Notes: generated by a model not told the origin, from the letters alone. A stretch of DNA of 55,066 bases from an uncultured virus (IMG/VR IMGVR_UViG_3300028196_001171) (IMGVR_UViG_3300028196_001171), one strand, 5' to 3'. Positions 1-43,180 are shown, counted from the stretch's first letter. Made by a program: numbers and translations.

Positions 1-3000
1 CTTATAAGACAAGGTCCAACTGAACAATTTGATTTTAATTACCAACCCATTGCAAATAATATAAAAACCAATTGGGTTATTAATGAGGTAACTAATGATT
101 ACTATATAAACTCAGGTAATAAATTAGGATACATGCGAGATGAGCAGTATGCATTTTTTATTAGATGGATATATAACACAGGTGAAAGATCTTCGTCATA
201 TCATATACCAGGTAGAGCATCTAAGGATTATACATTACCAAATGGAGATATTAAAAATGAAAGAGATATAATATCTGGTCCTAATACATTAGATCCTGCA
301 GGAGATCCTTTATTTAAAGTTTATAACACAAGTACCGTAGGTGCTTTAGTTAGTGAACAACAAGAAGATGGATCAACAATAATAGCTAGGGGAGAAATGG
401 CTTATTGGCAATCTACAGAAAAGTATCCTGATAAGCAACCTGAAATATGGAATTCAAGCTCACATACTTGGTCAAATGAATTTGATCCAGGTGCAGACTT
501 ATGCGGTGAATTTATTAGGCACCATAAAATGCCTAATGAAATGATTAACCCTGTACTAGGTTTAACAGATGGCACAGATACAGGTATATACATATTAGGT
601 GTAGAATTTTCAAATATAAAAAGACCTGTATATAATGATGGTAGTCCTATTACAAATATAGTAGGTTATGAATTACTCAGAGGATCTAGATTAGGGAATA
701 GAACTATACTTGCTAAAGGAATGTTCAAAAACATGCGTGAGTATGATTTGCCAGATACTGAAAATTTAATTGGTGATGCTCAAGGTTTATATCCTAATTA
801 CCCTTTTAATGATTTAAGACCTGATGTGTTTCATACAACAGTTAGAAAAACAAAAGGTTGTGATAATGGTGGTCCATTTTCTGGTTCTGCAATTAGTGAT
901 TTTCCACCTCTATCAGGTTTTAGAGAAGATGTTTTTACATTTCATTCTCCAGACTTAATGTTTACTAAGCCATATTTAAATGCATATGAAACAGTATTCT
1001 ATGGTAAGATAACCGGAGAATCATCAGGTTACTTTAAACCATCAGAAAAGCACCCTCAGTTTAAATTACTAAGAAATATTAGTGCTATAATTAGTGCATT
1101 AATAGGTGTAGGTTATGCTTTAAGAAATATTAATGGTACACCAGACACTAAAGCATTGCCAGTTCAGGGTATAAACAATGCATACCCTGAATGGAAGATT
1201 GAGGAAAGAGGTGGAGGTGGTGGAACTTGGAATGACTTTGCAACGGCTGCATCTCCAGGAGGTGTTGCAACTGCTAGCACAACAGGTAATATTAGCAGTC
1301 ATAAGGGTGGTGATGGTGATAATAGTGTAAAAGGTGGTGGTGCACATACATTAGCTAATGATGCTATTAATAGCTATGTGAATAGTCAAGGTGGTGGCCT
1401 TGGAGGCTGGTTAGGTGGTCTTATGGATTTGTTTACTGGTGGTATTCAAGATGTAGCAGATTTAACCGGGTTTGGAGACAGTACAAAAGAAAGACTAAAT
1501 CAGTTGGCTATAGATAACATGTCAGATACTGGTTCTACTGCTAATGGTGGTCTTATGGGTGGTGGTTCTCAAGAAGGAGTAACATTAGATACTTCAGAAT
1601 CAAACCTGGGAAATTTATTTAAAAAAGCTTTTGGTTTTGCATTACTCCAAAAAAATATTGCAGTTGGAGGTCAAGAAATAATAGATTTATTATATAACCT
1701 AAATTCTTTTCAGGAACATGTTTTAAAATATAATTCATATGGTTTCTATAATGATTTTAATGCCCATCCTTTAAACATAACATTTAGAACATTAAATGAA
1801 GCAGCTAATTATATAGGCTCTTCATTCCAAACATTTGATCAAAATAAATATAAAATAAATAATTTATTTAGACCTACTACTGTAGCAATTTCAACTAAAG
1901 ATAATATATCTTCAAACTATGGTGTAGAAGATAAATCTAGATTTGCTTTAGGTGGATTCTTTAATAGTAATGGTTCTGCATCAACACCAAATTGGCAGAG
2001 CAATTTGAAAAACCCAGAAGGTCCGTTTAAAAAACCTATATCTGCATTGTATGGTGCATTAAAGTTTAATATGGATAATCAATATGGGCAGCTTGATGGT
2101 ATAAAACAAATACAGCAAAGAGGTTGTGTAGAAAAAGTAGATCAATCAGATCCAGCTAATTTTAAATATACAAGTAAAGCTTTATTTAGTGGTGATGTAT
2201 TTATTTCTCACTACACCGAAAAATCTATTATGCCAATCTTTACTGACTTTTTAATTGGTCAGTATGATGGATACCCATATGATTATTACTTAAGGTACAA
2301 TGTACCCTTTCCAAGGTTTTGGCTTAACAGTAGAAAGTTTGATATGGCTGGTATGGCCACTACAATAAGTTCTTTTGGATTTAATGAATTGTTTGGTGGT
2401 AATGATATTGATGAGACTTTACCAAATGAATTATATTACTTAGATAGAGGTGATACTTGTGGATGGAACTTACTATCACTTTTTACTTCTGATGGTTTAA
2501 ATAGTGCATTTGCTATGAACCGTGCATATATGTATAGTCACATAAACGGGGTAAATGACTTTTATGTTGAAACAGAAATTAACTTACCATATAGAGATTG
2601 GGAAGAACCAAAAGAAAGAAGATTTTATGACAAGTATGATTACAATGATTTAGATGATTTGTTTCATGCTGAAATAGAAAAATTTGATAACTTTTATAAG
2701 TATGATGAGTCTTTAAGCCCATCTAAATTTATTAGCCAAAACAGTACGTTTGCAGAGCTGCAAACAAAAGACTACGACCCATACGTTGCAGAAAATTGTT
2801 ATGTCAATTATCCTAAGAGATTAATATATTCCTTACGTGCTGAAGAAGAAGATAGAAGAGATTACTGGAGACAGTATCTATTTGCTAATTATAAGGACTT
2901 TAAAAATAAAGTATCTGTTATAAAACCTTTCAGTAAGACCGGAGCATTAATGTTTTTCCCTTATCAATCACCACAATTATTTCAGGGTGTAGATAGTTTA

Positions 3001-5418
3001 AAAACAGATGCCGGTACTAAAATAACAATAGGAGATGGTGGATTGTTTAAACAAGCTTTACAAAATATAGTAAATAGTGATTTATCAAATGAGTATGGAT
3101 CATTAGAAAATCAACGTGGTGTTATAAATACAGCAGCAGGTTTATTTTTTATATCACAAGCTCAAGGTAAAATATTTCAATATACTCCGGGTAGTGGCTT
3201 GGTAGCCATATCAAACATGGGGATGAAATGGTGGTTTAATAAATATTTACCATCTAAATTTTTAAAACAATTTCCAGAGGCAGAAACAACAAAGTGGATA
3301 GACAATCCAGTAGTTGGTGTTGGTTGTCAAGTCATGTATGATCCAAATGATGATATAGTCTATTTTATGAAAAAAGACTATTCAATGAAATCTCAGTACG
3401 TAGTAAGAGCAACATTTACAGATAGATTAACTACACCTATTGATATTACTTTAGGTGGTAATGTAGTTGCTGTTGAGATAGGGGATCCAATATATTTTGA
3501 TGATTGTTCATGGACTATAAGCTATGATCCAAAAGCAAAAGCTTGGATTTCATTTCATGATTGGCATCCAGAATTTGCATTGCCAAGTATAAATCATTTC
3601 TTTACAACAAAAACTATAACAACTGATGTACCACAATGTCCTCCAGGTTATACCTTTAATTCAACAACTGGGTTGTGTGAGGATATTATAAATATAACTG
3701 AACCACAAACAGTAACAGTAGATGATATACCTGCAACTGTTACCGGTGGTCCACAAAATTGTTTATTAGATATTGTGATTGCTATAGATGCATCTGGTAG
3801 TACAGGTAATCCAAATCCTGGGACAAACAGTTTAGCAGATGCAGAATTGACTTGGTTAGTAGCTTTTATAAATGATCCTTCTATACAAGCAGCATTAACT
3901 GCAAACACTATGCAAATAGGTTTTTTAGCTTGGGCTACTAATAGTGCTCAAGGTAATCCAACAGGGACAGGGCAGTCTATGTTAGGAGCTGTTACTGGAG
4001 CTCAAGCAAGAACTTGGTTCCAAAATAACTGGTCAGGTACAAATGGTATACAGCAGCAGACCAATGCACAACTTGCAAGAAATAATGGATTAGCACAGCT
4101 TAATAATAAAGCCGGATCAGCTTATGCTGCTAACTATCCAGCAAGAAGTGCTGACCCTTTCTTTAGACAAGTTTTAATTGTAGTGACAGATGGTAATACA
4201 ATTACTTCAGGTAACGCTACATTAACTCCACAAAGTTTTAATGCTTTACAAAGTCCAAATGTAATACCTGGAGCAGGGGGTCCAGTCAATCAAGAATTAA
4301 TGTCTGTCTTTGTAGGGCCTAATGCAAATGGTCCAGGTAATGCCACTATTATTGATCAAATAACAGTTGGTGCTGGTGCGGGTCCAGCTAATGCATACTA
4401 TAATGCTACCACACAAACACCCGGACCTAATCAATTTATAATGAATGCAAGTAATCCTGCATCATTACAGGCTACAGCACAACAAATAGCAGGTCAAGTT
4501 TGTACTATTCCATTTAGTTGTGATTGTCCGGCAGGCTATACACTGGTATATCCAAATGCTACTAACGGATTTTATACAGATCCTACAGGAACATGTACTG
4601 ATGTAAATCCACCTATCTGTAGACAGGTTGTATGTCCTGACTGTCCTCCGGGGCCAACAGGTACTACAACAACTTCACTAGGCAGTTGCCCTGATACTTT
4701 TCCTGAACTAGGTTTAATAGGTGATCCAACTTGGGTTGACCCAACACCACCTTTATGTAATTATTATTATGCAGACTTTGTACAAGCTAATTACCAAGTT
4801 GGTTCATTCTGGAGACATAACGTAAGGTGTGATTTATTTGCTAATTACTATGGTGAAAGTTTCCCGTGGGAAATAGAGTTGATATCAAATACAGGTCAGT
4901 CAGTAAATACTATTAGAAGTATAGAATATCAGTTGGAAACATTTGTTTATAAAGGAGAACCAGAATACAATATGTGTGGAGGGGACAAATGGGAAGATCT
5001 TTTATTTAATTTTGATAAAGCAATTATTTATAATACAGAGCAGGTATCAGGATTATTGAATATAGAAATGCAACCCTTTAATGATCCATGGGCAGAAAAT
5101 GCATATCCAATAGTTAGTCCTAATGATATAACTGTTCTTTCTAGTAAAGTAGAACACAAGTTTAGAATAAATCAGTTTTATGATATTACAAATGATAGAG
5201 GTGAATTTACTAACTCAGAACAATCTGTATTTGATACACAATGTAATGGATATATTAGACCTTTAAATCAAACTAATTTAAATTACTTTAAGAGTCCTAC
5301 TCAACATAAAAAGTTTAGGCATTATTCTAATCATGTTTTATTAAGAAGACAAGAATCAGGGAATAGAAAAATGCTATTGAGATTAGACAATACTAAATTA
5401 TTACTATCAAAAAGATAA
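1..5418 (+). CDS. Tail nozzle/stabilization ('muzzle'-like) protein, 5'-truncated, with Gly-rich and Cys-rich/vWA insertions
   Basis: Frame 1 is open from base 1, so the true start is upstream of the window. GYMRDEQYAFFIRW, W-T-I-S-Y..W-ISFHDW and W-RHN motifs resemble crAss-like tail stabilization proteins. It lies immediately upstream of the cargo/RNAP genes. Confidence 0.7.
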   Translation, partial: LIRQGPTEQFDFNYQPIANNIKTNWVINEVTNDYYINSGNKLGYMRDEQYAFFIRWIYNTGERSSSYHIPGRASKDYTLPNGDIKNERDIISGPNTLDPAGDPLFKVYNTSTVGALVSEQQEDGSTIIARGEMAYWQSTEKYPDKQPEIWNSSSHTWSNEFDPGADLCGEFIRHHKMPNEMINPVLGLTDGTDTGIYILGVEFSNIKRPVYNDGSPITNIVGYELLRGSRLGNRTILAKGMFKNMREYDLPDTENLIGDAQGLYPNYPFNDLRPDVFHTTVRKTKGCDNGGPFSGSAISDFPPLSGFREDVFTFHSPDLMFTKPYLNAYETVFYGKITGESSGYFKPSEKHPQFKLLRNISAIISALIGVGYALRNINGTPDTKALPVQGINNAYPEWKIEERGGGGGTWNDFATAASPGGVATASTTGNISSHKGGDGDNSVKGGGAHTLANDAINSYVNSQGGGLGGWLGGLMDLFTGGIQDVADLTGFGDSTKERLNQLAIDNMSDTGSTANGGLMGGGSQEGVTLDTSESNLGNLFKKAFGFALLQKNIAVGGQEIIDLLYNLNSFQEHVLKYNSYGFYNDFNAHPLNITFRTLNEAANYIGSSFQTFDQNKYKINNLFRPTTVAISTKDNISSNYGVEDKSRFALGGFFNSNGSASTPNWQSNLKNPEGPFKKPISALYGALKFNMDNQYGQLDGIKQIQQRGCVEKVDQSDPANFKYTSKALFSGDVFISHYTEKSIMPIFTDFLIGQYDGYPYDYYLRYNVPFPRFWLNSRKFDMAGMATTISSFGFNELFGGNDIDETLPNELYYLDRGDTCGWNLLSLFTSDGLNSAFAMNRAYMYSHINGVNDFYVETEINLPYRDWEEPKERRFYDKYDYNDLDDLFHAEIEKFDNFYKYDESLSPSKFISQNSTFAELQTKDYDPYVAENCYVNYPKRLIYSLRAEEEDRRDYWRQYLFANYKDFKNKVSVIKPFSKTGALMFFPYQSPQLFQGVDSLKTDAGTKITIGDGGLFKQALQNIVNSDLSNEYGSLENQRGVINTAAGLFFISQAQGKIFQYTPGSGLVAISNMGMKWWFNKYLPSKFLKQFPEAETTKWIDNPVVGVGCQVMYDPNDDIVYFMKKDYSMKSQYVVRATFTDRLTTPIDITLGGNVVAVEIGDPIYFDDCSWTISYDPKAKAWISFHDWHPEFALPSINHFFTTKTITTDVPQCPPGYTFNSTTGLCEDIINITEPQTVTVDDIPATVTGGPQNCLLDIVIAIDASGSTGNPNPGTNSLADAELTWLVAFINDPSIQAALTANTMQIGFLAWATNSAQGNPTGTGQSMLGAVTGAQARTWFQNNWSGTNGIQQQTNAQLARNNGLAQLNNKAGSAYAANYPARSADPFFRQVLIVVTDGNTITSGNATLTPQSFNALQSPNVIPGAGGPVNQELMSVFVGPNANGPGNATIIDQITVGAGAGPANAYYNATTQTPGPNQFIMNASNPASLQATAQQIAGQVCTIPFSCDCPAGYTLVYPNATNGFYTDPTGTCTDVNPPICRQVVCPDCPPGPTGTTTTSLGSCPDTFPELGLIGDPTWVDPTPPLCNYYYADFVQANYQVGSFWRHNVRCDLFANYYGESFPWEIELISNTGQSVNTIRSIEYQLETFVYKGEPEYNMCGGDKWEDLLFNFDKAIIYNTEQVSGLLNIEMQPFNDPWAENAYPIVSPNDITVLSSKVEHKFRINQFYDITNDRGEFTNSEQSVFDTQCNGYIRPLNQTNLNYFKSPTQHKKFRHYSNHVLLRRQESGNRKMLLRLDNTKLLLSKR

Positions 5419-8400
5419 TGAGAAAAAATAAAAGCATAGGATTACCAGGTGGACCAAATGAAATAATTGTTGATCCAAAAGGACAATGGAATCATCCAGG
5501 AAAAAATACACGCATTGAAGGTAATCACATTACTATGCAAGATGTAGAATATCCAGTGTGGGCTCAACCTAATGTTGGTCCGGGAACAATGATGATGCCT
5601 GGTAGTGAACACTATTTTAAAAATGCAGATTATGTTGATGAGTTTCCTATGGCTCAAAAAGGTGTAGAGTTAAATAAAAAATATATTGATTCTACATTTA
5701 ATGCTAATATGGATAAACGTTGGGTACAAAGACTTTATGAAAAAAATCCAGAGTTTTATTTAGAAGGACAAACAGATCCTTCAACACATTTTATGGAGTC
5801 TGGAGACAGTATGGTTTACCCTTTAGTTGTTGAAGGAGATGATGGCAATTTAATGTTTGATAGAAAAAAAGGTAGATCCCAAGGAATTAAGTTTCCTACT
5901 GATGAGATAGCCCAATGGTTTGCAGAAAATTATAAAGATGGAACAGATGTATTAAAAGAAAAACAACGTGGTGGTGTTGCATCTAATATAAGCTATAATA
6001 GTCCAGCCCAAACATTGATGCCATTAGCAAGTTTGGTTAGTCCACCTAATCTTGTAAGAGCAGTGACACCTTTGCCACAAAATGCAAGTCAGCTTATTTT
6101 TAATAAATTAACAGGTTATGATAAATATAGTTTTGAAGATTCAACTTATCATGCAAATGAGCAACTTAAAAGAAGTGTTTTAAATGCAATTAAAAGAACA
6201 GGGCAAACAAAAGGAGGTACACAATATATAGATTATGGTCCTGAAATTGAAAAAGATCTTAACAGTCTTAATATGTCTTCTATAGATATGCTTGCAGGCA
6301 GTCTCCTATCACCAGAGCTAGCAGCAGCTACAACGTTTGGTAGAGTTAGTTATGAGCAAGATCCCAATACAGGAGACATAACTATATATGACTCTTATGA
6401 TTTTTCTTCTACTCCAGAAAAAAATACTTTTTACTCTAAAGTTAGAGGATTAGCGAGTGATGGAGAAAAGGGTAAACCAAGCGTTGTGGGAGTATTTAAT
6501 CCTAAAGATGAGACTAGTCTATCTAAAAAAGTAATGGAAAATTTTCTTAACCCAATAGATGCCTTAAACATTAAATATGGTGATATTAAAAGTGTTACTG
6601 ATATTCCCTCAAATTTATACAAAAAATTAAAAGAATATTTACCAACAACTCAAGATGTAATGGAATTAGGAAAATACCTCCCATCATTCCAAGATGCTGG
6701 AAGCACTTCTACTCCAACAAAGCAAATTGAATTCATGACTAACTGGGCAAATTCACCAATGCATAATCAAATGTTAAATGCTAGTTCTAGTTCAGAGGAA
6801 TTTAAAAATAAAGTTAAGCTTGCAAGAAGCAATTTTGATGATGTAAATATAGTTGATAAAGAAGTTGATGGATTTCTGGGACAGTATATTAATGGACAAG
6901 TAACAATGAACCCTTCAGCAATGGAAGAGTATGTAATAGGTAATGGTTACGATAGTGTTCTTGTTCATGAATTATCACATTTTACTGATGATGGTAATCC
7001 TGATAACAAGGGTTATTTTAAGGCAAGTAATATACCTTTATCTGACCGTAGACTAATTAAAAAATATGGTAAACAAGGAATAAAACGTTTAAAGGAAGAT
7101 GAAAAAGAACTTAATGAATTATTAAAGTCTGAAGGATTAACACCTAATGATAAGGAAGTTATTCAAGAAAGAATTAACCGTGCCAGATACTTAAATAGAG
7201 ATACAGAAACAAGATCAAGAATAAATGCTACAAGATATTTTTATGAAGAGGATGAAGACTTTGGTAGAAGTAGTGAAAGAAACATAGACAAAAACTTACC
7301 TAGTATATTTGATTCAAAGGTAACTCCTGAGATGATTGAGATAATGAAAAAAAGTGGACAGTATAAACAACTACAGGAAATTTATACGGATGATCAGATA
7401 CTAGAAATGTTTAATACTATATCAGACAGTAAAACTCCGGAAAAAAGCTTTGATGTATTAAATGCAAGATATGGAAAAGAATTACCAACTGCTCAAAAAG
7501 GTAAAAGTATAGTAACAGCATTATTAAAAAAAGCAAAAGAATGGGCACCAAGTGTTTTTGGAAAAATAGATAATGTAGCAAAAAATTCAGATAATGTAGT
7601 TAAAGCTGTTAGTAACACTAGTAAGAAAGGTCTTTATGAAATGCTTCCTATTAGAAAGTTAGAATCTCCTACACATTATGGTTCTATAAAGATGGATGAT
7701 GGTACTGTCCAAAATGCTTTAGATATGCTTAAAGCACAAGGAAAGTATGCTGATGATATGGGATATAAGATAGAAGATTTAGTAGGTGAGAACGTACAGT
7801 ATTTAGGTAATCAAGGTGGTAGATCTATTGTTAATGTCCCATTACCAAATGGTAAGAGTCAACTGTTTTACAAATCTACTGACTTAGCAGGTAAAGGTAC
7901 AGAAGGTCTTTGGCAACCCTATGCAGGTCATGCAACTATATTAGATTTTCCAGGACATGGACAAGTTGAAAATTGGTTTATTAAAGATAGTGGATTTAAA
8001 AATTGGTATGATAGTCAATCATTTAGAGACATAGCTGGTAACTTAGATAGAATAGCAGCAGAACAAGGATGGGATATGTCTGAACAAATACTAAAAAGTA
8101 AATTGAAACATGGTGGTGATTTACCACAAGCTCAACGTGGAAAAGCTATAATCAAAGGCATACTAAAGAAAGCTGATGAATTTATACCAACAGTAAAAAA
8201 TTTTTTTAAAAGCGTTGATGACTTTGAATTTAAAAATTTACCAAGTATAGAAGAAAAACAATTTATGAAAGTTGTAGATGGTGAATTTGATGTAGTTGAG
8301 TATGATCATCTTATACCTACACAACAAGAAATTTCAGACATAGCTAAGGCAACTAGAAAAAGATTACTTTCTGATAAGTTTATAAAAAACAATATGGAAG

Positions 8401-9812
8401 CTACTGGACGTAGCAAAGATGAAATAACAGGTTATATTGATGATTATATAAAAGAGTTTGAAAATTCTACTCTTTCTTTTGATAAACTAGATGGTACTGC
8501 TGGTGGATTATATACTAGAGGTAAAATTACTATTGACCCAAGAAAGCCACACCTTACTAAAGAAAATGTATTAGGAGTACTAGAGCATGAAATAGAACAT
8601 ATGTTTAGTAATGTAGGTCAACAAGGAAGTGATCTATATAGACACCCAAAATTAAGACTTGTTGATAATAATCCAGCATTAGATGTAGAATATTTAAGTA
8701 GACCATGGGAGCAACAAGTAAGGTTTAGAAAAGCACTTAACTGGTTAGAAAAAAATGCAGGATTAAAATCAGGGGATAATGTAACAGATGAACAAGTTGC
8801 AAAACTAACAGATGCTATAGCAAATTGGTCAAAGGAAGCAGGAAAAGATTTTAGAGGTACAGGTGCAAATTATGATATCCAGCATTTATTCTCAAGTTTA
8901 GATGCAGAACAATTTTTAAAACCAGGTCAGTATCTAATGCCCAATGCCCCAAGAACTGCAAATTTAGAAAACAGTAATGTTAGAAAAGCAATAAAAGATA
9001 TTTTAAATAAAACATATATGGCAGCACCAGTAATAGGTGGAGCGTATACTGTTAAGGAGTTACAAGAAAGTGGTCAGTTGCCTATAAAACAAAAAGGGGG
9101 ACCAACCGGATATGATCCATATTTTGATATTGATGATGAGTCTAAACAAAGAAGAGAAAAATTAAATACTGCATTAAGCACGGTAGTTGCTAATTCAGAT
9201 AATGATTCAAATTTAGAAGCATTGTTGTTAATGACTGCTGCTATGGAAAATTCATATGGAGGAAATTCTGGTGCATATGGTAGAAATTATACAAGAGGTC
9301 CAATGTCCATAGATGATGCAGCTTATAATGATTTGTTTGATCCTAGAGGAGAAAATAATAGATATACAGCTCAACAAAAAAAGATGTTTGATTGGTTAAG
9401 TTCAATGGGCTTAGATCCATCAAATATGAACAACGTATTAAAAGCAGGAGATGAATTAGCGGGAATGGCTACTGCTAGAATGCAATATGCTAGATCTCCT
9501 GAGAGTTTACCTAGCTTACAAGATCCAAATGCAATGTATGACTATTACATGAAATTTTATAACAAAACAAATGCTGATCATAAAGAAAGATTTATGGGAA
9601 ACTATAATGCATTTATTAAACCAAAACTAAAAACAGGTGGTGAGAGTAATCCATATAGTAGATATAAGACATATGTAAATGGTGGTTTTGTTGGATCAAA
9701 TGAAGATAAAAAAAATTATGATAAATTAAATAGAATCAATTATGCAGAGGCTAAAGCATTAGGTATGACTCCTGCAAATTATATAATGACTGAGATTTCT
9801 AAGCGTTCTTAA
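5418..9812 (+). CDS. Modular (polyvalent) putative virion cargo protein: two HExxH metallopeptidase domains, a lysozyme-like domain and unknown modules
   Basis: 1464-aa ORF coupled by TAATG overlap. HELSH at 6966-6980, HEIEH at 8586-8600 and LLLMTAAMENSYG at about 9220. Modules are separated by LPxAQxG/xxGG motifs. Confidence 0.7.
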   Translation: MRKNKSIGLPGGPNEIIVDPKGQWNHPGKNTRIEGNHITMQDVEYPVWAQPNVGPGTMMMPGSEHYFKNADYVDEFPMAQKGVELNKKYIDSTFNANMDKRWVQRLYEKNPEFYLEGQTDPSTHFMESGDSMVYPLVVEGDDGNLMFDRKKGRSQGIKFPTDEIAQWFAENYKDGTDVLKEKQRGGVASNISYNSPAQTLMPLASLVSPPNLVRAVTPLPQNASQLIFNKLTGYDKYSFEDSTYHANEQLKRSVLNAIKRTGQTKGGTQYIDYGPEIEKDLNSLNMSSIDMLAGSLLSPELAAATTFGRVSYEQDPNTGDITIYDSYDFSSTPEKNTFYSKVRGLASDGEKGKPSVVGVFNPKDETSLSKKVMENFLNPIDALNIKYGDIKSVTDIPSNLYKKLKEYLPTTQDVMELGKYLPSFQDAGSTSTPTKQIEFMTNWANSPMHNQMLNASSSSEEFKNKVKLARSNFDDVNIVDKEVDGFLGQYINGQVTMNPSAMEEYVIGNGYDSVLVHELSHFTDDGNPDNKGYFKASNIPLSDRRLIKKYGKQGIKRLKEDEKELNELLKSEGLTPNDKEVIQERINRARYLNRDTETRSRINATRYFYEEDEDFGRSSERNIDKNLPSIFDSKVTPEMIEIMKKSGQYKQLQEIYTDDQILEMFNTISDSKTPEKSFDVLNARYGKELPTAQKGKSIVTALLKKAKEWAPSVFGKIDNVAKNSDNVVKAVSNTSKKGLYEMLPIRKLESPTHYGSIKMDDGTVQNALDMLKAQGKYADDMGYKIEDLVGENVQYLGNQGGRSIVNVPLPNGKSQLFYKSTDLAGKGTEGLWQPYAGHATILDFPGHGQVENWFIKDSGFKNWYDSQSFRDIAGNLDRIAAEQGWDMSEQILKSKLKHGGDLPQAQRGKAIIKGILKKADEFIPTVKNFFKSVDDFEFKNLPSIEEKQFMKVVDGEFDVVEYDHLIPTQQEISDIAKATRKRLLSDKFIKNNMEATGRSKDEITGYIDDYIKEFENSTLSFDKLDGTAGGLYTRGKITIDPRKPHLTKENVLGVLEHEIEHMFSNVGQQGSDLYRHPKLRLVDNNPALDVEYLSRPWEQQVRFRKALNWLEKNAGLKSGDNVTDEQVAKLTDAIANWSKEAGKDFRGTGANYDIQHLFSSLDAEQFLKPGQYLMPNAPRTANLENSNVRKAIKDILNKTYMAAPVIGGAYTVKELQESGQLPIKQKGGPTGYDPYFDIDDESKQRREKLNTALSTVVANSDNDSNLEALLLMTAAMENSYGGNSGAYGRNYTRGPMSIDDAAYNDLFDPRGENNRYTAQQKKMFDWLSSMGLDPSNMNNVLKAGDELAGMATARMQYARSPESLPSLQDPNAMYDYYMKFYNKTNADHKERFMGNYNAFIKPKLKTGGESNPYSRYKTYVNGGFVGSNEDKKNYDKLNRINYAEAKALGMTPANYIMTEISKRS

Positions 9813-9866: not shown

Positions 9867-12704
9867 ATGGGTTTGAAAGTAAACAAAAAAAGTTTAAAAC
9901 AACAAGGAGGACAGATGATACCTGAGCAACCTGGGATGCAGCAGCAAACGCAGCAACCACAGGTTGATCCAAAGGTTATGGAAATAACTAAAGTCATAAG
10001 TCAATCAGTTCAAGAAGGTCAAGATCCTAAAGATGTTATTTCAGGTCTGCTAGAAAATCAAGTTGATTCTCAGATGATTGCGCAAGCATTGATGGTTGCA
10101 GGAATGAAAGAAGAACAAATAATAGCTTTATTTGAATCCATTGAAGAATCTAATCAACCTTCACAGCCTGAGCAAGTAACCAACAATCCTCAATTACTTG
10201 CAAGGAATGAAAGTTTACAAACTCAAAATCAGCAAGAATCTCCTGAAGAGCAGATGATGATGCCAACAGCACAGTATGGTACAGAAACAATTGATGATTA
10301 CTGGCAAAATAAAGATGGTGACATTGAAATGCAAGAACTAGATGAAGTTACTGTAAAAGCAGATAATAGATCATTTTTAAAAAAATTAACAGATAATGCG
10401 TTGTATCAAATCAATCCTTTATATATGGCTGATGATGCATTACAGATATTAGGTATACCTGCTAACTTTATAAGAGAAGGTGTACAAGGAGTTTTTGACA
10501 AAGGAGATGGTACATTTGATTGGGGTAATATTATACCAGATATACGTAACACTACTATATTAGATGATGACCCGTCTCAAGAGGGTGTATCTAAATCATT
10601 AGGTGTAGATAATTTTTGGGGAGCAATGGCAACAGATATGCTATTAGATCCTACTACATATTTTGGTGCAGGTGTTGTAAAAAATTTATTACAGAAAGGT
10701 GCTAAAAAAGGTGGTAAAAAAATTCTACCTGGTCTTATTAATAAAACTGAAGATGTAGTAAATCAATTTAAGTCTGCAGGAAAAGAACTACCTGATGACT
10801 TCAACATGCTTGATGCAATGAAGCAAAGTTTGGATGATGTAGATATAGATATGGATGCTGTTGAGAGAAAAGAGATAGAGGACTTTCTTGATTTATTTAA
10901 ACAAGATAAAGCAGCAAGAGCAGCAGAATCAGCTGAATCAGCAGCAGCAAAATCAGAAGCACGTGAGTTTCTTGATAACATGAAAAGACAAGATTACTTT
11001 GATGAGATTGCTGAATTTGAAGATCTTGACATAAAACATATGATAGATAGAGATGACATACCAACAGATGTCATTGAAAGATTAATAGAAAGCAGAAGAG
11101 GGAATTTGACAGAAGATCTTTTAGGAAATGAACAAGGTAGAAGTAGTCTTCTTGATGAATTCTTAAAAAGAAAAGATATACCTACAGATGTAAAATCTAA
11201 TATGATAGATGTAGATTATTTGAATCAAGCAGATAAAAGAAAAGGTATTATAGATATGCTAAACAATTCAGGTATCAATTCTGAATATTTCCCAACAGGC
11301 GGAGAACCTAGAAATTTTGCAGTTGGTGGAGAAAATCAATATGTAAATGGTGTTTATCTACCTGATGAAAAAGATATTGATAATAAATATTTAGATAAGA
11401 ATATTAATAGAGCTGTTGAGTATTACAGTGGTGTTGATCCTACTTTAGGTTTAGCTCCTTTAATGCCACCACCTAAAACAAATATATTTTTAGATACAAT
11501 ACAAACAGGTGTAAGTATGTTTGCAGATGCAAAAAGTGCATTTTCAGGATATAATGATAGACAAGAAGAATGGTCTAATAAGCTACCATCTTATTATAAG
11601 TACGATGTAAATACAGAAGGTGTATTTGAACCAGAGAATCAAATGAAAATTAAAGATTGGGCACAAACTCAATTTAATGAATGGCAAACAGAAACAGATA
11701 AAAATGTTGCAAATTCTAATACAGAAAAAGCAGGTATTTTAGGTACTACTGTAAACAAAATGATTAATGGTCAAACGTTTGAGGAATACAATAGAGAGCT
11801 AGGTCAAACAACAGTTGGTAAAACACCTGAAGAAATTGCTACTATGCAAGACCTATATAGAGCTGCAGCAAAAAAAGCTAGAGGTGGTGAGCAGTCTTTA
11901 CCAAAAGCACAATACAATCTTCCTGACTGGATGTATGGTGAAGATGGAGCTGAGTATGATATGGGTGGATCAGACTTTAATCCTTATACAGATAGTCTAC
12001 AGGATATGATGAAAAATTCTGGTCAAACAAACTATATGGAGGATTTAATGAATACTACACCTTCAAGAAAATCAAGTAATGCTTCAACACAACCTGCTCA
12101 ACAACCTGCTCAACCACCTGTTAGAACTGCAGATGATAAATTTAATGATATAACTTTACCAAAAGCTAGTGTGTCAAATCCTTTAAGTGGGACATTAGAT
12201 GCTATTGCAGACAGTCCATTATACAATGCTGCTACAGCAATGTCAAGTTTTGCTGTTAAAGGAGCTGGTTTTATTAATAGAAGGATAGCAGAGCGTGATT
12301 TTAAAAGACAATATGATAAGCTTGAGTTGATGGGTGGTGCTGATTTTGCTTATGATACTAAGATGTCTGATCCTATGAGTGAAGGTTATTATGGTTTAAA
12401 TGATGGACGTTTACAAGGAGAAGCCGAAAGAACAACTGGTTATTATATGAACTTTCAAGGGTCTCCTACACAGTTTGGTGGAGCAACCGGAACTGCAAAA
12501 AAGGGCGGTGAGTTTAAAGTACACATGATGTTTGATCCAGAATCAGGTAAAGGATATAAAGCTAATGAACCAGCTGATCATGAAAGAATGAAAAAATTAG
12601 GTTACCTTCATAAAGATGAAATGCAAGGTGGTGGGGAAATAGAAGTTGATAATGATACACTAGCTGCACTAATAGCAGCAGGTGCTGACATAGAAATATT
12701 ATAA
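9867..12704 (+). CDS. Putative virion internal/cargo protein, Gln-rich, modular
   Basis: 945-aa ORF with several xxGG(E) and PxAQYG motifs, located in the cargo block. Confidence 0.6.
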   Translation: MGLKVNKKSLKQQGGQMIPEQPGMQQQTQQPQVDPKVMEITKVISQSVQEGQDPKDVISGLLENQVDSQMIAQALMVAGMKEEQIIALFESIEESNQPSQPEQVTNNPQLLARNESLQTQNQQESPEEQMMMPTAQYGTETIDDYWQNKDGDIEMQELDEVTVKADNRSFLKKLTDNALYQINPLYMADDALQILGIPANFIREGVQGVFDKGDGTFDWGNIIPDIRNTTILDDDPSQEGVSKSLGVDNFWGAMATDMLLDPTTYFGAGVVKNLLQKGAKKGGKKILPGLINKTEDVVNQFKSAGKELPDDFNMLDAMKQSLDDVDIDMDAVERKEIEDFLDLFKQDKAARAAESAESAAAKSEAREFLDNMKRQDYFDEIAEFEDLDIKHMIDRDDIPTDVIERLIESRRGNLTEDLLGNEQGRSSLLDEFLKRKDIPTDVKSNMIDVDYLNQADKRKGIIDMLNNSGINSEYFPTGGEPRNFAVGGENQYVNGVYLPDEKDIDNKYLDKNINRAVEYYSGVDPTLGLAPLMPPPKTNIFLDTIQTGVSMFADAKSAFSGYNDRQEEWSNKLPSYYKYDVNTEGVFEPENQMKIKDWAQTQFNEWQTETDKNVANSNTEKAGILGTTVNKMINGQTFEEYNRELGQTTVGKTPEEIATMQDLYRAAAKKARGGEQSLPKAQYNLPDWMYGEDGAEYDMGGSDFNPYTDSLQDMMKNSGQTNYMEDLMNTTPSRKSSNASTQPAQQPAQPPVRTADDKFNDITLPKASVSNPLSGTLDAIADSPLYNAATAMSSFAVKGAGFINRRIAERDFKRQYDKLELMGGADFAYDTKMSDPMSEGYYGLNDGRLQGEAERTTGYYMNFQGSPTQFGGATGTAKKGGEFKVHMMFDPESGKGYKANEPADHERMKKLGYLHKDEMQGGGEIEVDNDTLAALIAAGADIEIL

Positions 12705-12706: not shown

Positions 12707-15556
12707 ATGGCAAAAGTTAGAATAAACAAATTACCTAAAGGCTTCCATATAGTTGATGGCAAAGTAAAGAAAAAAGCTTTAAAGAGAGATGGTGGAATGG
12801 TAACTGGCGATCAAGCAGACTATGGTTTAATTACAACACCACAAGAATACTATGGACAAACAAACTTTAACAATGATTTAGATGATTCAGTTAGATATAG
12901 TTTATCTAGTGTACCTAGGGATGAAGCAAACATTGAAGCTGAAGGTGGGGAGACTGTACTAACAGATTTAAGTGGTGATGGTCAATTTGGTTTATACAGT
13001 ATTACTGGACCAAGACACTCAAGCGGAGGTGTACCAATGTATTTGCCTGAGCAGTCTTTTATTTATTCTGATACTGCAGGATTAAAAATGGACAGAAATG
13101 AGCTTGCTGAGTTTGGTATAGAAAGCAGAAAAAAAATAACACCAGCACAAGTATCTAAAAGATATCAACTCAATCCTTTTTACGGAGTTATTAATGATCA
13201 GTATGCTGATATTATATCAACTACAAGTGCTGAATTAATGCTTAAGAAAAATATGAGTAACTTGTCAAAGCTAGCCTTTGGTCAAGAAGTCAAAAAGAAT
13301 TTTGAAGATGGAGTGCCTTTAGCATCATATCCATACTTAGTAGAAAAAGGTATTGACCCAATTGAGTTTGCCGCTACAGTAGAAGAATCAACAAGACAAA
13401 AACAAGAGTTAGAATTATTAGCATCACTACCACCAGAGCAACAGCAAAAAATGTTGCAGATGCAAGCTATGATGGAAAACATAGATGGACAACCACAGCA
13501 ACAAGAAGTTGTTGATCCACAGATGTCAGATCCTAATAGTCAGATCCAACCAACACCAGAAGAAATGGGTCAAGCTCCAGCTGCAGAGTTTCAAAAAGGT
13601 GGAGAAAAAGCTTCTGAATATGCTAAGCGTAAAGGTCAAGAATGGCCTAAAGGTGTTAAAGATCCTACTTTTGATGGTAAGGTTTGGGTATTTGATGATG
13701 GTACCCCTCCTCTAAGTAAATCAGCTGCTATGCAATTAGCAATGACCGTTAAGGGAACAGGTAATATTCCAGAATTATATAGAACTGAAGATATAGAATT
13801 TGAAGAGCAAGAAACAGTTCAGCCAACAGTTCAACCAGATACAGAAGCTAAAACTGATGTTGAAGATGGTGCTATAGATGATTCAGGTACTGGTGTTACT
13901 ACTTCAACAGCAAAAGCTATTGATGAAAACCCTTTACCAAAAACACATCCTCAATGGCAAGAGTTTGAAGATGCTATAAATAATGGTTATAAAATTGTTG
14001 CCACTAGAGATGAAACACAAGGTGTTACAAACTATGAAGCTATAGAAGTTTTACCTGCTAACAAGTTTGAAAATTTTGTTCAGAATGAACAGAAACAACT
14101 AGAAACAAAAGGAACAGGTAGTGTAAGTGTTATTAGTGATGAAGATGCATCTTTAAATTCTGTATATGAAGGATCAAATGATAATAATGTTAGAATAAGA
14201 AAAGGAATGTATTCCAATCAGGATAGACCTATGTCTCAAGGTTGGATGGGAGAAGAGTCTAATTCTTTTGGTGGTGACTTTACAACTCCTGAAGCCGAAG
14301 CTGATTTTAATTTACGTTATGGTGATGATCTAAAAACTATGATGCCTGAATTTAATTATCAAATGAAGTCAGGTTTATGGAAGAATGGTAAACCTGTAAA
14401 TGATCAAGCTAGAAAATATAAAGCACATTGGACTCAGGCACAGACTTTAATGCAAGAAATAGAAAATAAAAACCATTATGAGATATTTGGAAAAGATGCA
14501 AAAAGTAAACCTAGAATATTATTCCCATGTAGTGGAGATAGACCAGGAACATGTGTAGATGGCAAATTAGGTTTTGATACTTTTAATAAAGGTAGAACAT
14601 ATGTACGTGTACAGAAACCAAATATATTAAATGCTAGTGTTGAAGATGAAAGAACACCAGCAAGTAGTGGAGACATAATAACAGAAAAACAACCAATGCC
14701 TGATTGGTGGTGGCAAGACCTAAATAATATAGCAACACAAAACTCATTAGAGAATCCGTTGTTTATGCCTAATGTGACTAAACTACCACAAGAAAGAATA
14801 AACTATGTTCTTGATGATTGGACTGCGAAAGTAAATGCAATAAATGCAAATACTGGTCAATATATGAAAAACCTTAGAGGATATGGTAAAGGTAGTGTGG
14901 CTGGTACAAATGCATTTGGTAAAGGTGCAGAAGAAGCAGTAAAAGCAATTGCTGGTACTAATACTAATAATGTAGGCATTATGAATAATGCTGCAAGAAC
15001 GCAAGCTGATCTTAATTTAAGAACAGGAGTTTTTAATGCTAAACAACAAGATGCAGAGTATGATGGCAGTGTAAGAGCATTGCAAAGATTTGTTGATTTT
15101 GAAAACTGGGATAAAAAGGAATCTAATAAATTATATAATGATGCTATTACAAACAGAGCAAATACATATAATTTAAATATGCTTAAAGACTACATGGAAA
15201 TAGATCCAAGCATTGGTGGTATGCAAGTTAAAAAAGCAGATAAACCTCTTGTAGCAAATAAGGATGACCGTGAGGATTGGCAGATAAGACAAGATAGACT
15301 GATAGAGATTGATAAAAAAACATCTGAACTTTATCCCAATGCTACAGTAGATGAGAGGATGAAAATGAATCAATATTTCTTAGATGGCACACCTTTAACA
15401 GGTAAAAAAACAGAAAGAAGAAATCCTTCATCTGAAGAAGATAATAATGATTTTAATATTCCTTCAGTTACAGTACCAAATACAACAGTTGGTAAGAAAG
15501 GTGGTAGCATGAAACGTTTTGCAAACCCTTTCTATACAGGTAAGATGGGGATATAA
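12707..15556 (+). CDS. Putative virion internal/cargo protein
   Basis: 949-aa ORF. NIEAEGGETV and GPRHSSGGVP motifs are typical of phage internal proteins. It also has KRDGG, FQKGGE and KKGG motifs. Confidence 0.6.
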   Translation: MAKVRINKLPKGFHIVDGKVKKKALKRDGGMVTGDQADYGLITTPQEYYGQTNFNNDLDDSVRYSLSSVPRDEANIEAEGGETVLTDLSGDGQFGLYSITGPRHSSGGVPMYLPEQSFIYSDTAGLKMDRNELAEFGIESRKKITPAQVSKRYQLNPFYGVINDQYADIISTTSAELMLKKNMSNLSKLAFGQEVKKNFEDGVPLASYPYLVEKGIDPIEFAATVEESTRQKQELELLASLPPEQQQKMLQMQAMMENIDGQPQQQEVVDPQMSDPNSQIQPTPEEMGQAPAAEFQKGGEKASEYAKRKGQEWPKGVKDPTFDGKVWVFDDGTPPLSKSAAMQLAMTVKGTGNIPELYRTEDIEFEEQETVQPTVQPDTEAKTDVEDGAIDDSGTGVTTSTAKAIDENPLPKTHPQWQEFEDAINNGYKIVATRDETQGVTNYEAIEVLPANKFENFVQNEQKQLETKGTGSVSVISDEDASLNSVYEGSNDNNVRIRKGMYSNQDRPMSQGWMGEESNSFGGDFTTPEAEADFNLRYGDDLKTMMPEFNYQMKSGLWKNGKPVNDQARKYKAHWTQAQTLMQEIENKNHYEIFGKDAKSKPRILFPCSGDRPGTCVDGKLGFDTFNKGRTYVRVQKPNILNASVEDERTPASSGDIITEKQPMPDWWWQDLNNIATQNSLENPLFMPNVTKLPQERINYVLDDWTAKVNAINANTGQYMKNLRGYGKGSVAGTNAFGKGAEEAVKAIAGTNTNNVGIMNNAARTQADLNLRTGVFNAKQQDAEYDGSVRALQRFVDFENWDKKESNKLYNDAITNRANTYNLNMLKDYMEIDPSIGGMQVKKADKPLVANKDDREDWQIRQDRLIEIDKKTSELYPNATVDERMKMNQYFLDGTPLTGKKTERRNPSSEEDNNDFNIPSVTVPNTTVGKKGGSMKRFANPFYTGKMGI

Positions 15557-15615: not shown

Positions 15616-18600
15616 ATGGCTACATTTTTAAAAGGAGAAAAGAATTTTTACCCAGAGATTAAATCATTTACACCTGATTATAAGTTTCTCTCTGCAACAT
15701 TGGATGCAAGAGAAAGTAAATATTTATCTGGTTGGGAGGCTGCTAATGATACATATAGCAGAATGTATTCTGATTTAAGTCAAGAAGAAAATAGACAGTT
15801 TCAAAAACAGTTTATAGAAGATCTAACTCCAAAATTACAAAAGATATCTGGATTAGATTTTTCCATACAACAAAACGTAAATGCAGCTAAAGGGGTGTTT
15901 GCTCCTTTTTTTGAAGATGAGCGTGTTGTAAAAGATATAGTATATACTTCTACTTATAAAGATCAATTAAGATATGCTAGCCAACTGGCTAATAGTGCAG
16001 ACTTTGAAGTACGTCAAAAGTTTAACCCTATTGCTATGGAAGCAATGCAATTTAGAATGCAAGAGTTTCAAGAGGCAGATAGAGCTGCAACTTTAGGTAT
16101 GGCTTTACCTAAGTTTGTTGAAGATGCTGATTTAGTAAGAACAGCTAAAGATTATTTAAAAGAGAAGGGTCTCACAATGACGGTTGAGTATCCAAGTTTT
16201 GGAGATAAAGATGGAAAAGGTGCTGGTAATTTTTTAATCACTGATAAGAATGGTAAACTTATAGAAGGTCTAGCAAGGAATATGATTATGACAGATCTAC
16301 TAGATGATCCTAGAGTAAGACAATGGTATGATACAAGAACATATGTAGAAAGCATGAGATTTGCTAATAATGCATTAGAAGCAGGAGGTGTTCAATCAAA
16401 ACAAGAAGGCTTACAACTTTGGGCTAGTGAACAACTTAAAGTATTAGAAGAGATTAACTTTAACCAACAAGAGGATCTAAAAAAAGATATAGACAAAAGA
16501 CGAAATGCCACGGTTACTTGGGAATCTGTAAGAGGAGGTTCAGGTTTATTACCTGCAGAAAAAACTATACTTGAAAATAATAAATCAGCAGTAGAACAAT
16601 TACAAGCAGACTTAGACAGAAAGTTACAAGGATCAGAGTTTTTAGCAATGAATGATGTTGATAATACCGCATCACTGAGTAAGGCATACGCAATGTTAGG
16701 CCAACAATATATGATGCAAGATACTATGGAAGCTGCACGCCAGTATTCATATTTAGACTCTAGTACTGAATTAGAAGTAAATCAATTAAAGCAAGATGAG
16801 CTAAAACACCGATATACATTAAATGAAATTAAAACAAGAGCTTACTTTGACAGTGAACAATCTAAACAAGACTATGAAGAGTCATTTAAATTAAGTCAAC
16901 AACAGTATGAAGAAGATGTAGCTTTAGAACAATTAAAAGGTGCAATTGAAAAAGCCAATAAGGGTGATAACAGTAGTAAAACAGAAAGAAATAGATCTAG
17001 ATCAACAACTACATATGGTAATACAACTTCCTCTATATTTCAACTTGATGATGATGGTGAAATAATAAAAGATAATTATATAAATGAAAATGAAAATGCA
17101 ATAGCTACTAAGCAAAAGCAGATGATGTCACGCAAGAATGATCTTATTGTAGATATGTTTGCTGCAAGATATCCTGGCGCTGAAACTTATACTATTAATA
17201 CAGGAACAGTAGATGAGCCTGTTATGGAGCAAATGAATTCTAAAAGACTTAAAGAATTTTTAGCTACTAAACAAAAAGTTTATAACCCAAAGACTCAGCA
17301 AGAAGAAGATTCAGACAAGTTACAAAACTATGCTGCTATAGACAGAATATTCACAGAAATGACTGATTATTTTTCACCAGACAATGAAGAGAATGTATAT
17401 CAACAACATCCCAACTGGTTAATAGGAGATGATGGAGTTAGAAATACAGATGATGATAATCAAACTGATTACAGACTAATTCAAAATAAACTTTATAACT
17501 CTGATCCTACAAATCCATCTCAACAAGGATACTTTGAGGATGAAAAGCTTTTTAATCAAATGGTTGTAAAAAATGGTGAAGCATTTTATAATAATGCTAC
17601 AGCAGCATCAGCAGCCATTCAAGAAACGGATAAGGATTTTAAAAAAATGATTACTGAATTAAACTATCCAACACCATATGTAATTGATAATGGTATTAAG
17701 AGAGTCATGCCTAGAAATGAGTACATGAAAAAATTCAGAGATATGGCTCTTAAAGGGGAAATAGAAAACTTTGATGGAGAAGGCTTTGGTCAAACAAGTG
17801 ATGGGGATAGTAATCCAGATTGGTATGACAAACAAGTGACATTACTTCCTGTGAAGGCTTCGACAGGAACAATGCCTGTTCCAGTGATAGTGAATAAACC
17901 AGATGAAGATGCTATTAAAGGTAAGTCTGCGTATATATATGATAAGCTTGTCACACAGATGCAGAAAAATTTTGGGTCTCAAGACTATAAAACATATTTG
18001 CAAATACAAAGACAAGTATTAGGTCTTCCTGGAACTAACATGGGTTTTACACAAACAGAAAGCGTTTATACCAATGGCACCCCTTTACCAAATTCTGATG
18101 CAGAAAGAGTAACAAATACAATGATCAATCAGTTTAGACAAACTTATGCAGATCCAACTCAAATAGGTGGGGTAATTATGGAATTGCCAAATACAATAGA
18201 AGATATAACTGATATTAATATTTTAGCTCCAGATGTAACTAGTAATGAAGCTATAGCAGGAAGAATTTTATTTAATGAATTAGTACTAAAAGGAGGAGAT
18301 GTAGATTCAAAATATAAAATAGAATACTTTCAAAATATTGGTCCAGATAGATTTGATGATGAAGGTAAAAAAATTTCAACTCCTATGGCAGGATATAAAA
18401 TATCTGAAATAGACCAAAAATTTATAGAAGCTTTAGACCCTGATGGTGGTGCTTCTCCTCTTAATGCTGATCAGTATATAATAGCAAAAAAAATGAATAA
18501 AGAAGGGTTTGTGTTTTTATTTCCAAGAGATAAAGATATTAGTCCGGGCAGCTATGCAAAAAGTGCTGAGGGTTCAAACATTAAAAAAAGATTAGATTTA

Positions 18601-38890: not shown

Positions 38891-39304
38891 ATGACAACTA
38901 AATTATTCATAGTGAGCATAACAGCATTTTGTACGTATTTATGTACGTACTTTTTTGATTTATCAATGGAAAACATGGAACAATACTTAGCTGTTTGTTC
39001 AGTATTATGGTTAGATGGTATATTTGGAGTTTGGGCAGGCTGTAAAAGAGAAGGGTTTAAAACATATAAAGCTCTAAGAATAACAAAAAATACTTTTACA
39101 TGGTTAGCCATCCTGACCGTTATTCTTATGATAGAAAAAGGTTTTGCAGGTACAGGTTGGCTATCCGAGGTAATTATAGTTCCCTTTATGGTACTTCAAA
39201 TTATAAGTGCACTAAAGAATGCTTCTATGGCTGGGCTGATAAAAACAGATGAGCTTAATAAAATCCTAGATAGAATTGATAACCACAAAGGACCTAGAAA
39301 ATAG
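38891..39304 (+). CDS. Holin-like membrane protein (phage holin 4-like)
   Basis: 137 aa with 3-4 hydrophobic segments; D-G-I-F-G-V-W and S-A-L-K-N motifs. Confidence 0.65.
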   Translation: MTTKLFIVSITAFCTYLCTYFFDLSMENMEQYLAVCSVLWLDGIFGVWAGCKREGFKTYKALRITKNTFTWLAILTVILMIEKGFAGTGWLSEVIIVPFMVLQIISALKNASMAGLIKTDELNKILDRIDNHKGPRK

Positions 39305-41103: not shown

Positions 41104-41114
41104 TGGTTTTGTTT

Positions 41115-42095: not shown

Positions 42096-42115
42096 TGTAT
42101 AATTTATTAAGGATT

Positions 42116-42148
42116 AAAAAGCTGCACCCCTCTTTGGAAGAATGCAGC
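42116..42148 (-). terminator. Intrinsic terminator-like hairpin upstream of nrdB
   Basis: The minus strand reads GCTGCATTCTTC-CAAA-GAGGGGTGCAGC-TTTTT: a 12-bp stem with GU pairs followed by a U tract. Confidence 0.6.
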
Positions 42149-43174: not shown

Positions 43175-43180
43175 CACTAT

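What the first reader, a model, noticed from the sequence alone, without database searches (positions are those of the whole stretch)
5418..9812. Cassette-array cargo polyprotein: effector-like domains separated by a recurring LPxAQxG / xxGG motif
Seen: the 1464-aa protein is punctuated by related motifs FPMAQKG (5643), LKEKQRGG (5952), LPSFQDAG (6678), ARYGKELPTAQKG (7464), KHGGDLPQAQRG (8106), LPIKQKGG (9078) and KLKTGGE (about 9624). The motifs fall between domain-sized blocks: unknown (about 95 aa), unknown (about 235 aa), HExxH peptidase, unknown FYKS..W.P..G..WF.K block, second HExxH peptidase, and a lysozyme-like block. Inference: the motif is a maturation-protease cleavage site or a capsid-packaging tag. 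The gene would then be an exchangeable array of injected effectors. I do not know of a description of this motif system.
Basis: partly seen in the sequence, partly recalled or inferred. Interest (0 to 1): 0.9.

Follow-up and report, generated by a model that had tools for sequence, protein, structure and literature searches.

The report
Gly-Gly punctuation in crAss phage cargo
A protein that this marine phage most likely packs inside its particle is a string of swappable enzyme-like blocks joined by one short Gly-Gly peptide that also marks the matching cargo proteins of cultured relatives, and it may be an unrecognised cutting or loading signal.

Summary
Confirmed. All seven motifs are at the stated places in a 1464-aa gene behind the muzzle gene of a marine crAss-like phage. 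Among 66 orthologues (complete ones 324-2507 aa), homology breaks cluster at the motif (144 of 222, null 33.5; other Gly-Gly pairs 16, null 15.9). A relative 99.85% identical in DNA swaps one zincin block for an ADP-ribosyltransferase-like block from motif to motif. Codons look like background, so selection is on the peptide. The motif is enriched in three cargo genes and in small basic genes behind the capsid gene (44 of 44 loci), not in shell, tail or RNA-polymerase-slot proteins. It also punctuates cargo protein C1 of crAss001 and MS-detected virion proteins of Cellulophaga phages phi4:1 and phi14:2. Function is not shown. Published crAss001 gel fingerprints, re-scored, show 11 large virion proteins but no intact gp45, which favours cutting; gp46 is barely seen either, one motif is modelled attached in the cryo-EM map, and no dedicated protease was found. 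Best guess: processing signal (0.5); rival: uncut docking tag (0.3). This scan noted the motif before in three other findings; ten literature searches found no description.

The parts
5418..9812 (+). 1464-aa modular cargo protein in the C1 slot (first gene behind the muzzle gene)
5418..5663 (+). Conserved N-terminal domain (aa 1-82) ending in motif 1, FPMAQKG at 5643; family marker, also in phi4:1 virion protein gp040
   Evidence: 451 viral loci; HMM E 8.9e-9 to phi4:1 gp040 among 31 proteins
5664..5975 (+). Block aa 83-186, unknown function, ends in motif 2 (LKEKQRGG, 5952); found at different positions in 21 orthologues
   Evidence: cluster 5
5976..6701 (+). Block aa 187-428, unknown function, ends in motif 3 (LPSFQDAG, 6678); absent from L003 and L006
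6702..7502 (+). Zincin-like block 1 (HELSH at aa 517, nt 6966), ends in motif 4 (ARYGKELPTAQKG, 7464)
   Evidence: weak Pfam Peptidase_M91 E 0.02; profile A5 hits phi4:1 gp041 and phi14:2 g070 at 3e-17 and 4e-17
7503..8141 (+). FYKS..W.P block aa 696-900, unknown function, followed by double motif 5 (KHGG-DLPQAQRG, 8106)
   Evidence: no family
8142..9101 (+). Zincin-like block 2 (HEIEH at aa 1057, nt 8586), ends in motif 6 (LPIKQKGG, 9078); replaced by an ART-PolyVal-like block in L001 and L003
9102..9644 (+). Block aa 1229-1407 with conserved M.AMEN and RGPMSI; PHROG 3108; lysozyme-like by eye only; ends in motif 7 (KLKTGGE, 9624)
9639..9809 (+). C-terminal 57-aa block shared with otherwise different orthologues (L004, L016, L042)
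133..5418 (+). Muzzle/stabilisation-type virion protein (gene begins upstream of the window; 2139 aa in L001); no motif excess
   Evidence: PHROG virion structural
9867..12704 (+). Second motif-bearing cargo gene (7 strict matches, 0.46 expected)
12707..15556 (+). Third cargo gene, with the EAEGGE domain homologous to C1 of csAssE-Sib, crAss002, p-crAssphage and phi4:1 gp040; 1 strict match here, 4.1 per 1000 aa in orthologues
15616..19026 (+). Gene in the C2 slot; no motif
   Evidence: slot by gene order only
19037..33046 (+). 4669-aa giant protein with HEAFH zincin at aa 2054 (nt 25196), conserved in G002-G004 and crAss001 gp47; candidate reader protease

Best explanation
The gene is one of three that together fill the place of crassvirus cargo protein C1. 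Its product is packed inside the capsid (inferred from slot and from homologues in MS-analysed virions). The peptide [YFMAK]-[QKA]-x-G-(G), often doubled as xxGG-spacer-LPxAQxG, is a protein-level signal carried by capsid-interior proteins (shown as a sequence pattern). Most likely it is a processing site: a virion-associated protease cuts at or beside it during maturation or at ejection, so one gene delivers several separate small proteins (cell-wall hydrolases, zincins, ADP-ribosyltransferases, basic DNA-binding peptides) that pass the tail singly (inferred). The best candidate enzyme is the conserved zincin of the gp47-like giant cargo protein (inferred). Because any block flanked by the signal stays packaged and released, recombination fixes new blocks motif to motif (exchange shown; reason inferred).
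For: Exchange at the motif: 144 of 222 breakpoints beyond aa 130, null 33.5, max 49; non-motif GG 16, null 15.9; exact 110-aa motif-to-motif deletion between crAss001 and Bcn2; 79% identical GG-to-GG zincin block in phi4:1 and phi14:2, flanks 25% and 32%. Peptide-level selection. Restriction to interior cargo: (4.4, 6.3, 4.1 per 1000 aa against 0.3, 0.5, 0.14). Up to 9 copies in 221 aa of small basic proteins with no room for domains between them, so not just a domain hinge; 111 of 338 internal segments are 30 aa or shorter. Re-scored crAss001 virion fingerprints: 11 proteins of 36-277 kDa found with 40-100% of their Arg-ending peptides, gp45 with at most 1 of 14 in any of 13 bands, though cryo-EM shows 12 copies like the portal. 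The two modelled gp45 pieces (214-245, 425-552) and the four MS regions named in the text each lie inside one motif-to-motif segment. Conserved HEA[FW]H in the gp47-like protein; PMC5512222 section 8 proposes autoproteolysis by such zincins.
Against: No cut has been observed anywhere. The portal-bound C1 model starts at A425-F-G-G and runs on, so that site is not cut after Gly-Gly, unless the cut lies before the motif. gp46, which lacks the motif, is also hardly detected (at most 2 of 9 peptides; one plausible peak in the 58-kDa band), so the missing gp45 may be a detection failure; no gp45 fragment band or junction peptide was found, one semi-tryptic match being explained by chance. Bayfield et al. 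read gp45 as one chain through the portal. No JAB or Ulp1-type protease in 0 of 5 genomes, none among 80 G003 proteins in Pfam, and the conserved gene behind the capsid gene does not fold like a protease. The second Gly is only 79% conserved.
Confidence: 0.5

Rival explanations
1. The motif is an uncut docking or loading tag that binds the scaffold, portal or inner capsid wall; many copies give avidity, and copies between blocks are left over from fused stand-alone genes that each carried a tag at both ends.
For: Motif in the first 40 aa of 60 of 102 downstream genes and in the last 45 aa of 58 of 77 complete ones; many small basic proteins end 4-7 residues after a motif; AFGG is ordered at the start of the portal-bound C1 domain; no protease found.
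Against: One tag should suffice for loading, yet nearly every junction keeps it; intact gp45 is missing from the gel fingerprints; C2 and the RNA-polymerase-slot proteins are packaged without it.
Confidence: 0.3
2. The motif is a flexible hinge or unfolding point that lets blocks thread the tail one by one; it has no binding partner, and its G-rich codons merely offer microhomology for recombination.
For: Gly-Gly is flexible; junction DNA shares a few bases (GGT GG); the cryo-EM paper argues for partial unfolding during ejection.
Against: Specific residues at -3 and -2; other Gly-Gly pairs are not at breakpoints; codons match background; dense copies in domain-less basic proteins.
Confidence: 0.13
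3. The motif is read after injection by a host enzyme, or by a ubiquitin-like E1/JAB system, that frees or conjugates the blocks.
For: The motif resembles Gly-Gly ends of ubiquitin-like proteins (recalled); crAss001 encodes ThiF and JAB-like proteins.
Against: No JAB in 0 of 5 aquatic genomes, 4 of them at least 98% complete; gp45 is already missing from virion gels before infection.
Confidence: 0.07

Closest known systems
Crassvirus cargo protein C1 (gp45 of crAss001; Pfam crAss_CARG1; PMC10172136)
   Same: Same slot behind the muzzle gene; same motif at block boundaries (11 matches, 1.55 expected); the gp45 375-428 block recurs in the next gene of marine relatives (E 2.7e-11); the window's third gene hits C1 of csAssE-Sib, crAss002 and p-crAssphage.
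   Different: Split into three large genes; the 1464-aa protein has no CARG1 match and no direct similarity to gp45; carries enzyme-like blocks; the paper's text and the passages read mention no motif or cleavage ('cleav' 0 hits).
Phage polyvalent proteins (PMC5512222)
   Same: Virion-borne multidomain proteins with zincin metallopeptidases; orthologues carry ART-PolyVal, ART, GNAT blocks; autoproteolytic release proposed.
   Different: A conserved junction peptide is not in the passages read ('linker' 0 hits); many blocks here are wall hydrolases or unknown; the window protein itself matches no polyvalent Pfam model.
Head-protease maturation of ejection proteins in SPN3US/phiKZ/T4 (PMC10052503)
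   Same: A short recurring motif in capsid-interior proteins; propeptides that may both target and be cut.
   Different: Those sites are AXE and lie mostly in N-terminal propeptides; here sites lie between blocks along the whole chain, and no prohead protease was found.
Gly-Gly-specific viral proteases (adenain, ASFV pS273R: recalled; coronavirus PLpro LXGG: seen in search listing)
   Same: Hydrophobic or Gln-x-Gly-Gly pattern; adenain substrates include small basic core proteins (recalled).
   Different: No clan CE protease (PF02902) in 0 of 5 genomes; the hydrophobic residue sits one place further upstream.

Membership tests
Crassvirales (crAss-like) structural module | Crassvirus major capsid protein, portal and ring proteins | tested here: met
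   Relative G003: Crass_capsid E 1e-30, CrAss_Ring_1/2/3_4, P22_portal. The window's own record (63% complete) lacks the capsid gene but has the same ring-muzzle-cargo order.
Crassvirus cargo protein C1 | Gene between muzzle and C2/RNA-polymerase genes | tested here: met
Crassvirus cargo protein C1 | Portal-binding CARG1 domain (PF25725) | tested here: not met
   No match in the 1464-aa protein. The third gene (12707) has a related-looking domain: HMM hits to other C1 proteins, but only E 0.014 to gp45.
Crassvirus cargo protein C1 | Present inside the virion | not testable with these tools
   Uncultured phage; homologous domains are in MS/MS-annotated virion proteins of phi4:1 and phi14:2.
Polyvalent proteins | Two or more conflict-related domains in variable combinations | tested here: met
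   Architectures differ widely among 66 orthologues; ART-PolyVal, ART, GNAT, SET in orthologues; two zincins in the window.
Polyvalent proteins | Match to polyvalent-specific domain models in this protein | tested here: inconclusive
   None in the window protein; ART-PolyVal in the block that replaces zincin 2 in L003 (E 1.9e-6, under cut-off) and in L018 (over cut-off).
Zincin metallopeptidase (blocks 1 and 2) | HExxH plus downstream Glu | tested here: met
   H, E, H invariant and Y, E nearly invariant in 15 rows; PDB profile hits to HExxH peptidases are only E 0.05-2. Activity untested.
Lysozyme-like fold (aa 1229-1407) | Match to a lysozyme/SLT family or structure | tested here: inconclusive
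   No Pfam, NCBIfam or PDB hit; invariant Glu in 5 rows; no usable model, the fold covered only aa 1-1200.
Protease-matured polyprotein | Cleavage at the motif | tested here: inconclusive
   Intact gp45 absent from 13 gel bands, but no fragments seen and gp46 weak.
Protease-matured polyprotein | Dedicated maturation protease gene | tested here: inconclusive
   None found; conserved zincin in the gp47-like protein is a candidate.

The most novel reading that the evidence does not exclude
Crassviruses, including the most abundant gut phages, share an unrecognised maturation code: capsid-interior proteins carry a Gly-Gly signal that both loads them and is cut by the virion zincin, so C1 is a polyprotein whose pieces sit separately in tail and capsid rather than one chain threading the portal, small basic proteins are chopped into DNA-condensing peptides, and any domain placed between two signals becomes an injected effector.
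Probability: 0.3. Interest if true: 0.9.

Novelty: new variant of a known kind. Interest (0 to 1): 0.72.

Why it matters
How crassviruses load and eject megadaltons of cargo is open. A shared junction signal gives direct tests in cultured phages (crAss001, phi14:2, phi4:1) and named peptides to look for in existing proteomics data. If it is cut, the published picture of C1 as one chain across the portal needs revision and the virion zincin gains a substrate. Either way it defines an exchange point for a large pool of mostly unknown injected blocks (92 of 106 representative segments had no Pfam match).

Tried and rejected
Single-sequence AlphaFold of aa 1-1200: pLDDT 36, unusable, so motif position relative to folds was judged by homology only. 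Whole protein against PDB, Pfam, NCBIfam and annotated phages: nothing significant. ESM Atlas for the FYKS block: best 0.85, a lead at most. The 338-aa gene behind the capsid gene as protease: no conserved catalytic residues; model pLDDT 92 matches only crAss-like proteins in BFVD and, weakly, SAP-like and RecA C-terminal domains (Z 6-7); rejected as candidate, though a missing match does not exclude it. JAB and C48 searches negative. DNA-level recombination site: rejected, codons at motif positions follow background apart from a mild GGT excess. Direct link of the EAEGGE domain to crAss001 gp45: not reached, also with a widened profile. Amphipathic helices after AQxG: seen by eye, not outstanding in a hydrophobic-moment scan. 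No complex prediction was obtained, so binding of the motif to scaffold or portal is untested. Read laying gave contigs only: the stretch is covered in three seawater DNA runs and in part in one RNA run, with no informative joint. Literature searches without a description of the motif.

Full report
Observation. The ORF 5418-9812 encodes 1464 aa and the seven motifs start at the stated coordinates. A strict pattern finds 5 matches against 0.59 in shuffles; since the pattern was drawn from the motifs, the tests on relatives carry the weight.

Context. The gene follows a PHROG virion-structural gene and precedes four more large genes. The window's record is 71,757 bases, 63% complete. Near-complete relatives carrying the same N-terminal domain are crAss-like: G003 has Crass_capsid, three CrAss_Ring families and a P22-type portal (80 of its 110 listed ORFs were scanned). 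In crAss001 the gene behind the muzzle gene is cargo protein C1, gp45 (PMC10172136, passages and sections 7 and 10 read). The stretch is covered by contigs of three seawater DNA runs, two of which may be its source.

Orthologues. A profile of aa 1-82 found 451 confirmed loci among 532 pattern hits; the best 80 were kept. With this gave 83 proteins, 66 after removing near-duplicates, 56 of them complete, from 324 to 2507 aa in the same slot. In 12 of 83 the domain is internal. Ends of alignments at 60% identity or more fall within 12 aa of a motif in 161 of 229 cases (null 37.6, maximum 55) and starts in 98 of 190 (null 30); starts peak just before and ends just after the Gly. Leaving out positions up to 130, 144 of 222 breakpoints are at motifs (null 33.5), while Gly-Gly pairs outside the motif score 16 (null 15.9). 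About half of the motifs (207 of 421) sit at a detected breakpoint. Motif-delimited segments recur in different orders; window aa 83-185 occurs in 21 proteins. L001 is 99.85% identical in DNA over aa 1-900, diverges inside LPxAQRG and rejoins at KQxGG; the inserted block matches ART-PolyVal weakly in its relative L003. Of 106 representative segments, 14 had Pfam matches: ART-PolyVal, ART, GNAT, SET, amidase, LysM, glucosaminidase, lysozyme, SLT, PG-binding, DUF5872 and two likely chance hits.

Level and range of the signal. Codon use in the motif follows background, so it is kept as peptide. Matches per 1000 aa: 4.4 in this slot, 6.3 and 4.1 in the next genes, against 0.3 in the muzzle, 0.5 in the C2-slot gene and 0.14 upstream. 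A second cluster appeared in the complete genomes: small Lys-rich ORFs behind the capsid gene made largely of KKM[KQA]xGG repeats. All 44 loci (of 80 fetched) that held both flanking genes have them: 335 matches in 29,348 aa against 46 in shuffles, none in the flanking genes. Their presence in virions is not shown.

Cultured phages. crAss001 gp45 has 11 matches (1.55 expected), while gp20, 32, 44, 46, 49 and 50 have none and gp47 has 2 (0.97 expected). Phage Bcn2, 95% identical, lacks exactly 110 aa from one motif to another. C1 proteins of DAC15, IAS, crAss002, p-crAssphage and csAssE-Sib show the motif too. Cellulophaga phage phi4:1 gp040, annotated as a virion protein from MS/MS, carries the window's N-terminal domain followed by FQAGG and the EAEGGE domain of the window's third gene. 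phi4:1 gp041 and phi14:2 g070, also MS-annotated, carry zincin blocks of the window's type and share one block from GG to GG at 79% identity, with 25% and 32% on either side and at most 30% in the core pairs that aligned. In these two proteins and g069 the strict pattern alone is not significant (1 match each).

Is it cut? I re-scored the peak lists of 13 crAss001 virion gel bands (PMC6235969, supplement 8 parts 70-74 and 173; Fig. 3a itself not seen; band sizes assigned by my inference from the text) against 37 crAss001 proteins. Eleven proteins of 36-277 kDa were recovered, in the expected size order, with 40-100% of their Arg-ending peptides (portal 5 of 8). gp45, 91 kDa and 12 copies like the portal, gave at most 1 of 14 in any band. 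Against this: gp46, without motifs, gave at most 2 of 9, with one plausible peak in the 58-kDa band; no band between 15 and 35 kDa was excised, so fragments could not be seen. In the cryo-EM paper both modelled pieces and the four MS regions named in the text stay within single motif-to-motif segments, but the portal-bound piece begins with A425-F-G-G attached; that site is uncut after Gly-Gly or is cut before the motif. Extended Data Fig. 3 and Table 3 and one supplement were not readable and bear on this.

Who would cut? No JAB or C48 protease in 5 genomes; the conserved gene behind the capsid gene folds confidently but not like a protease. The cargo's own zincins are in only 20 of 56 complete orthologues. 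A HEA[FW]H zincin is present in the giant protein of the window (aa 2054), G002, G003, G004 and crAss001 gp47. PMC5512222 (passages and section 8) proposes such domains for autoproteolysis; the phi14:2 preprint 10.1101/2020.03.07.982082 (passages) mentions a virion zincin of unknown role.

Mechanism. Shown: modular structure, exchange at the motif, peptide-level conservation, restriction to C1-slot and small basic genes, presence across crAss-like phages. Inferred: packaging of this protein, cutting, the enzyme, effector action. I put processing at 0.5, an uncut docking tag at 0.3, a plain hinge at 0.13 and a host or ubiquitin-like reader at 0.07. Loading and cutting may be coupled, as for T4 and SPN3US propeptides (PMC10052503, passages).

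Novelty. It works like a polyvalent cargo protein in the C1 slot; it is not a C1 member by the CARG1 test. Ten searches found no description of the motif; the library lacks most subscription papers. Three earlier notes of this scan report the same motif on other DNA; one pointed me to the joint in the solved structure, which I checked, and one favours hinge or docking. The small basic genes, the swaps in cultured phages and the gel re-scoring are not in the lines of those notes that I saw. Verdict: real, new variant of a known kind, interest 0.72.

Noticed in passing
L085:14334-16052 (G003); L099:2625-5727 (G002); L111-L190: Cluster of 5-9 small Lys-rich ORFs between the gene behind the capsid gene and a ring gene, many built of repeated KKM[KQA]xGG and CxxCGG; includes DUF5872 and DUF6321. 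Possible core proteins.
   Followed up: partly
L191:9751-11970 (phi4:1 gp041) and L192:30360-32141 (phi14:2 g070): Distant cultured Cellulophaga phages share a 79% identical zincin block bounded by Gly-Gly motifs, suggesting horizontal exchange in a shared host.
   Followed up: yes
L110:16493-28066 (crAss001 gp66, gp76, gp77): crAss001 encodes an aspartyl protease, a ThiF (E1-like) and a weak JAB match in its replication module; JAB not found in the five aquatic records.
   Followed up: partly
L085:13305-14321 (G003): Conserved 338-aa protein behind the capsid gene (gp33-like): confident model, crassvirus-only matches, weak likeness to SAP and RecA C-terminal domains, perhaps DNA-binding.
   Followed up: partly
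window 33050-38797: The 1915-aa protein has EEVLH where the similar G003 protein has HEFAH, possibly an inactive zincin.
   Followed up: no
L085:10307-11560 and relatives: The putative scaffold has an invariant YVADGG in 28 aligned aquatic sequences; it may be a helix cap or a motif variant.
   Followed up: no
L108:2009-5058 (cr112_1): The C1 gene is split in two by an inserted 191-aa Cys-rich ORF (endonuclease-like by eye) next to a motif.
   Followed up: no
window 7503-7570 and 8142-8210: Two blocks open with similar basic, amphipathic-looking helices after AQxG, and zincin 2 ends in a hydrophobic Gly-rich stretch also seen in orthologues.
   Followed up: partly
window 38891-55040: Two holin-like genes, class I ribonucleotide reductase large and small subunits, an Ig/cadherin-domain protein, a dGTP diphosphohydrolase-like ORF, DUF932 and a spore-photoproduct-lyase-like ORF.
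   Followed up: no
L085:16903-17355 (G003): Ferritin/Dps-like gene (DUF5856) inside the structural module.
   Followed up: no
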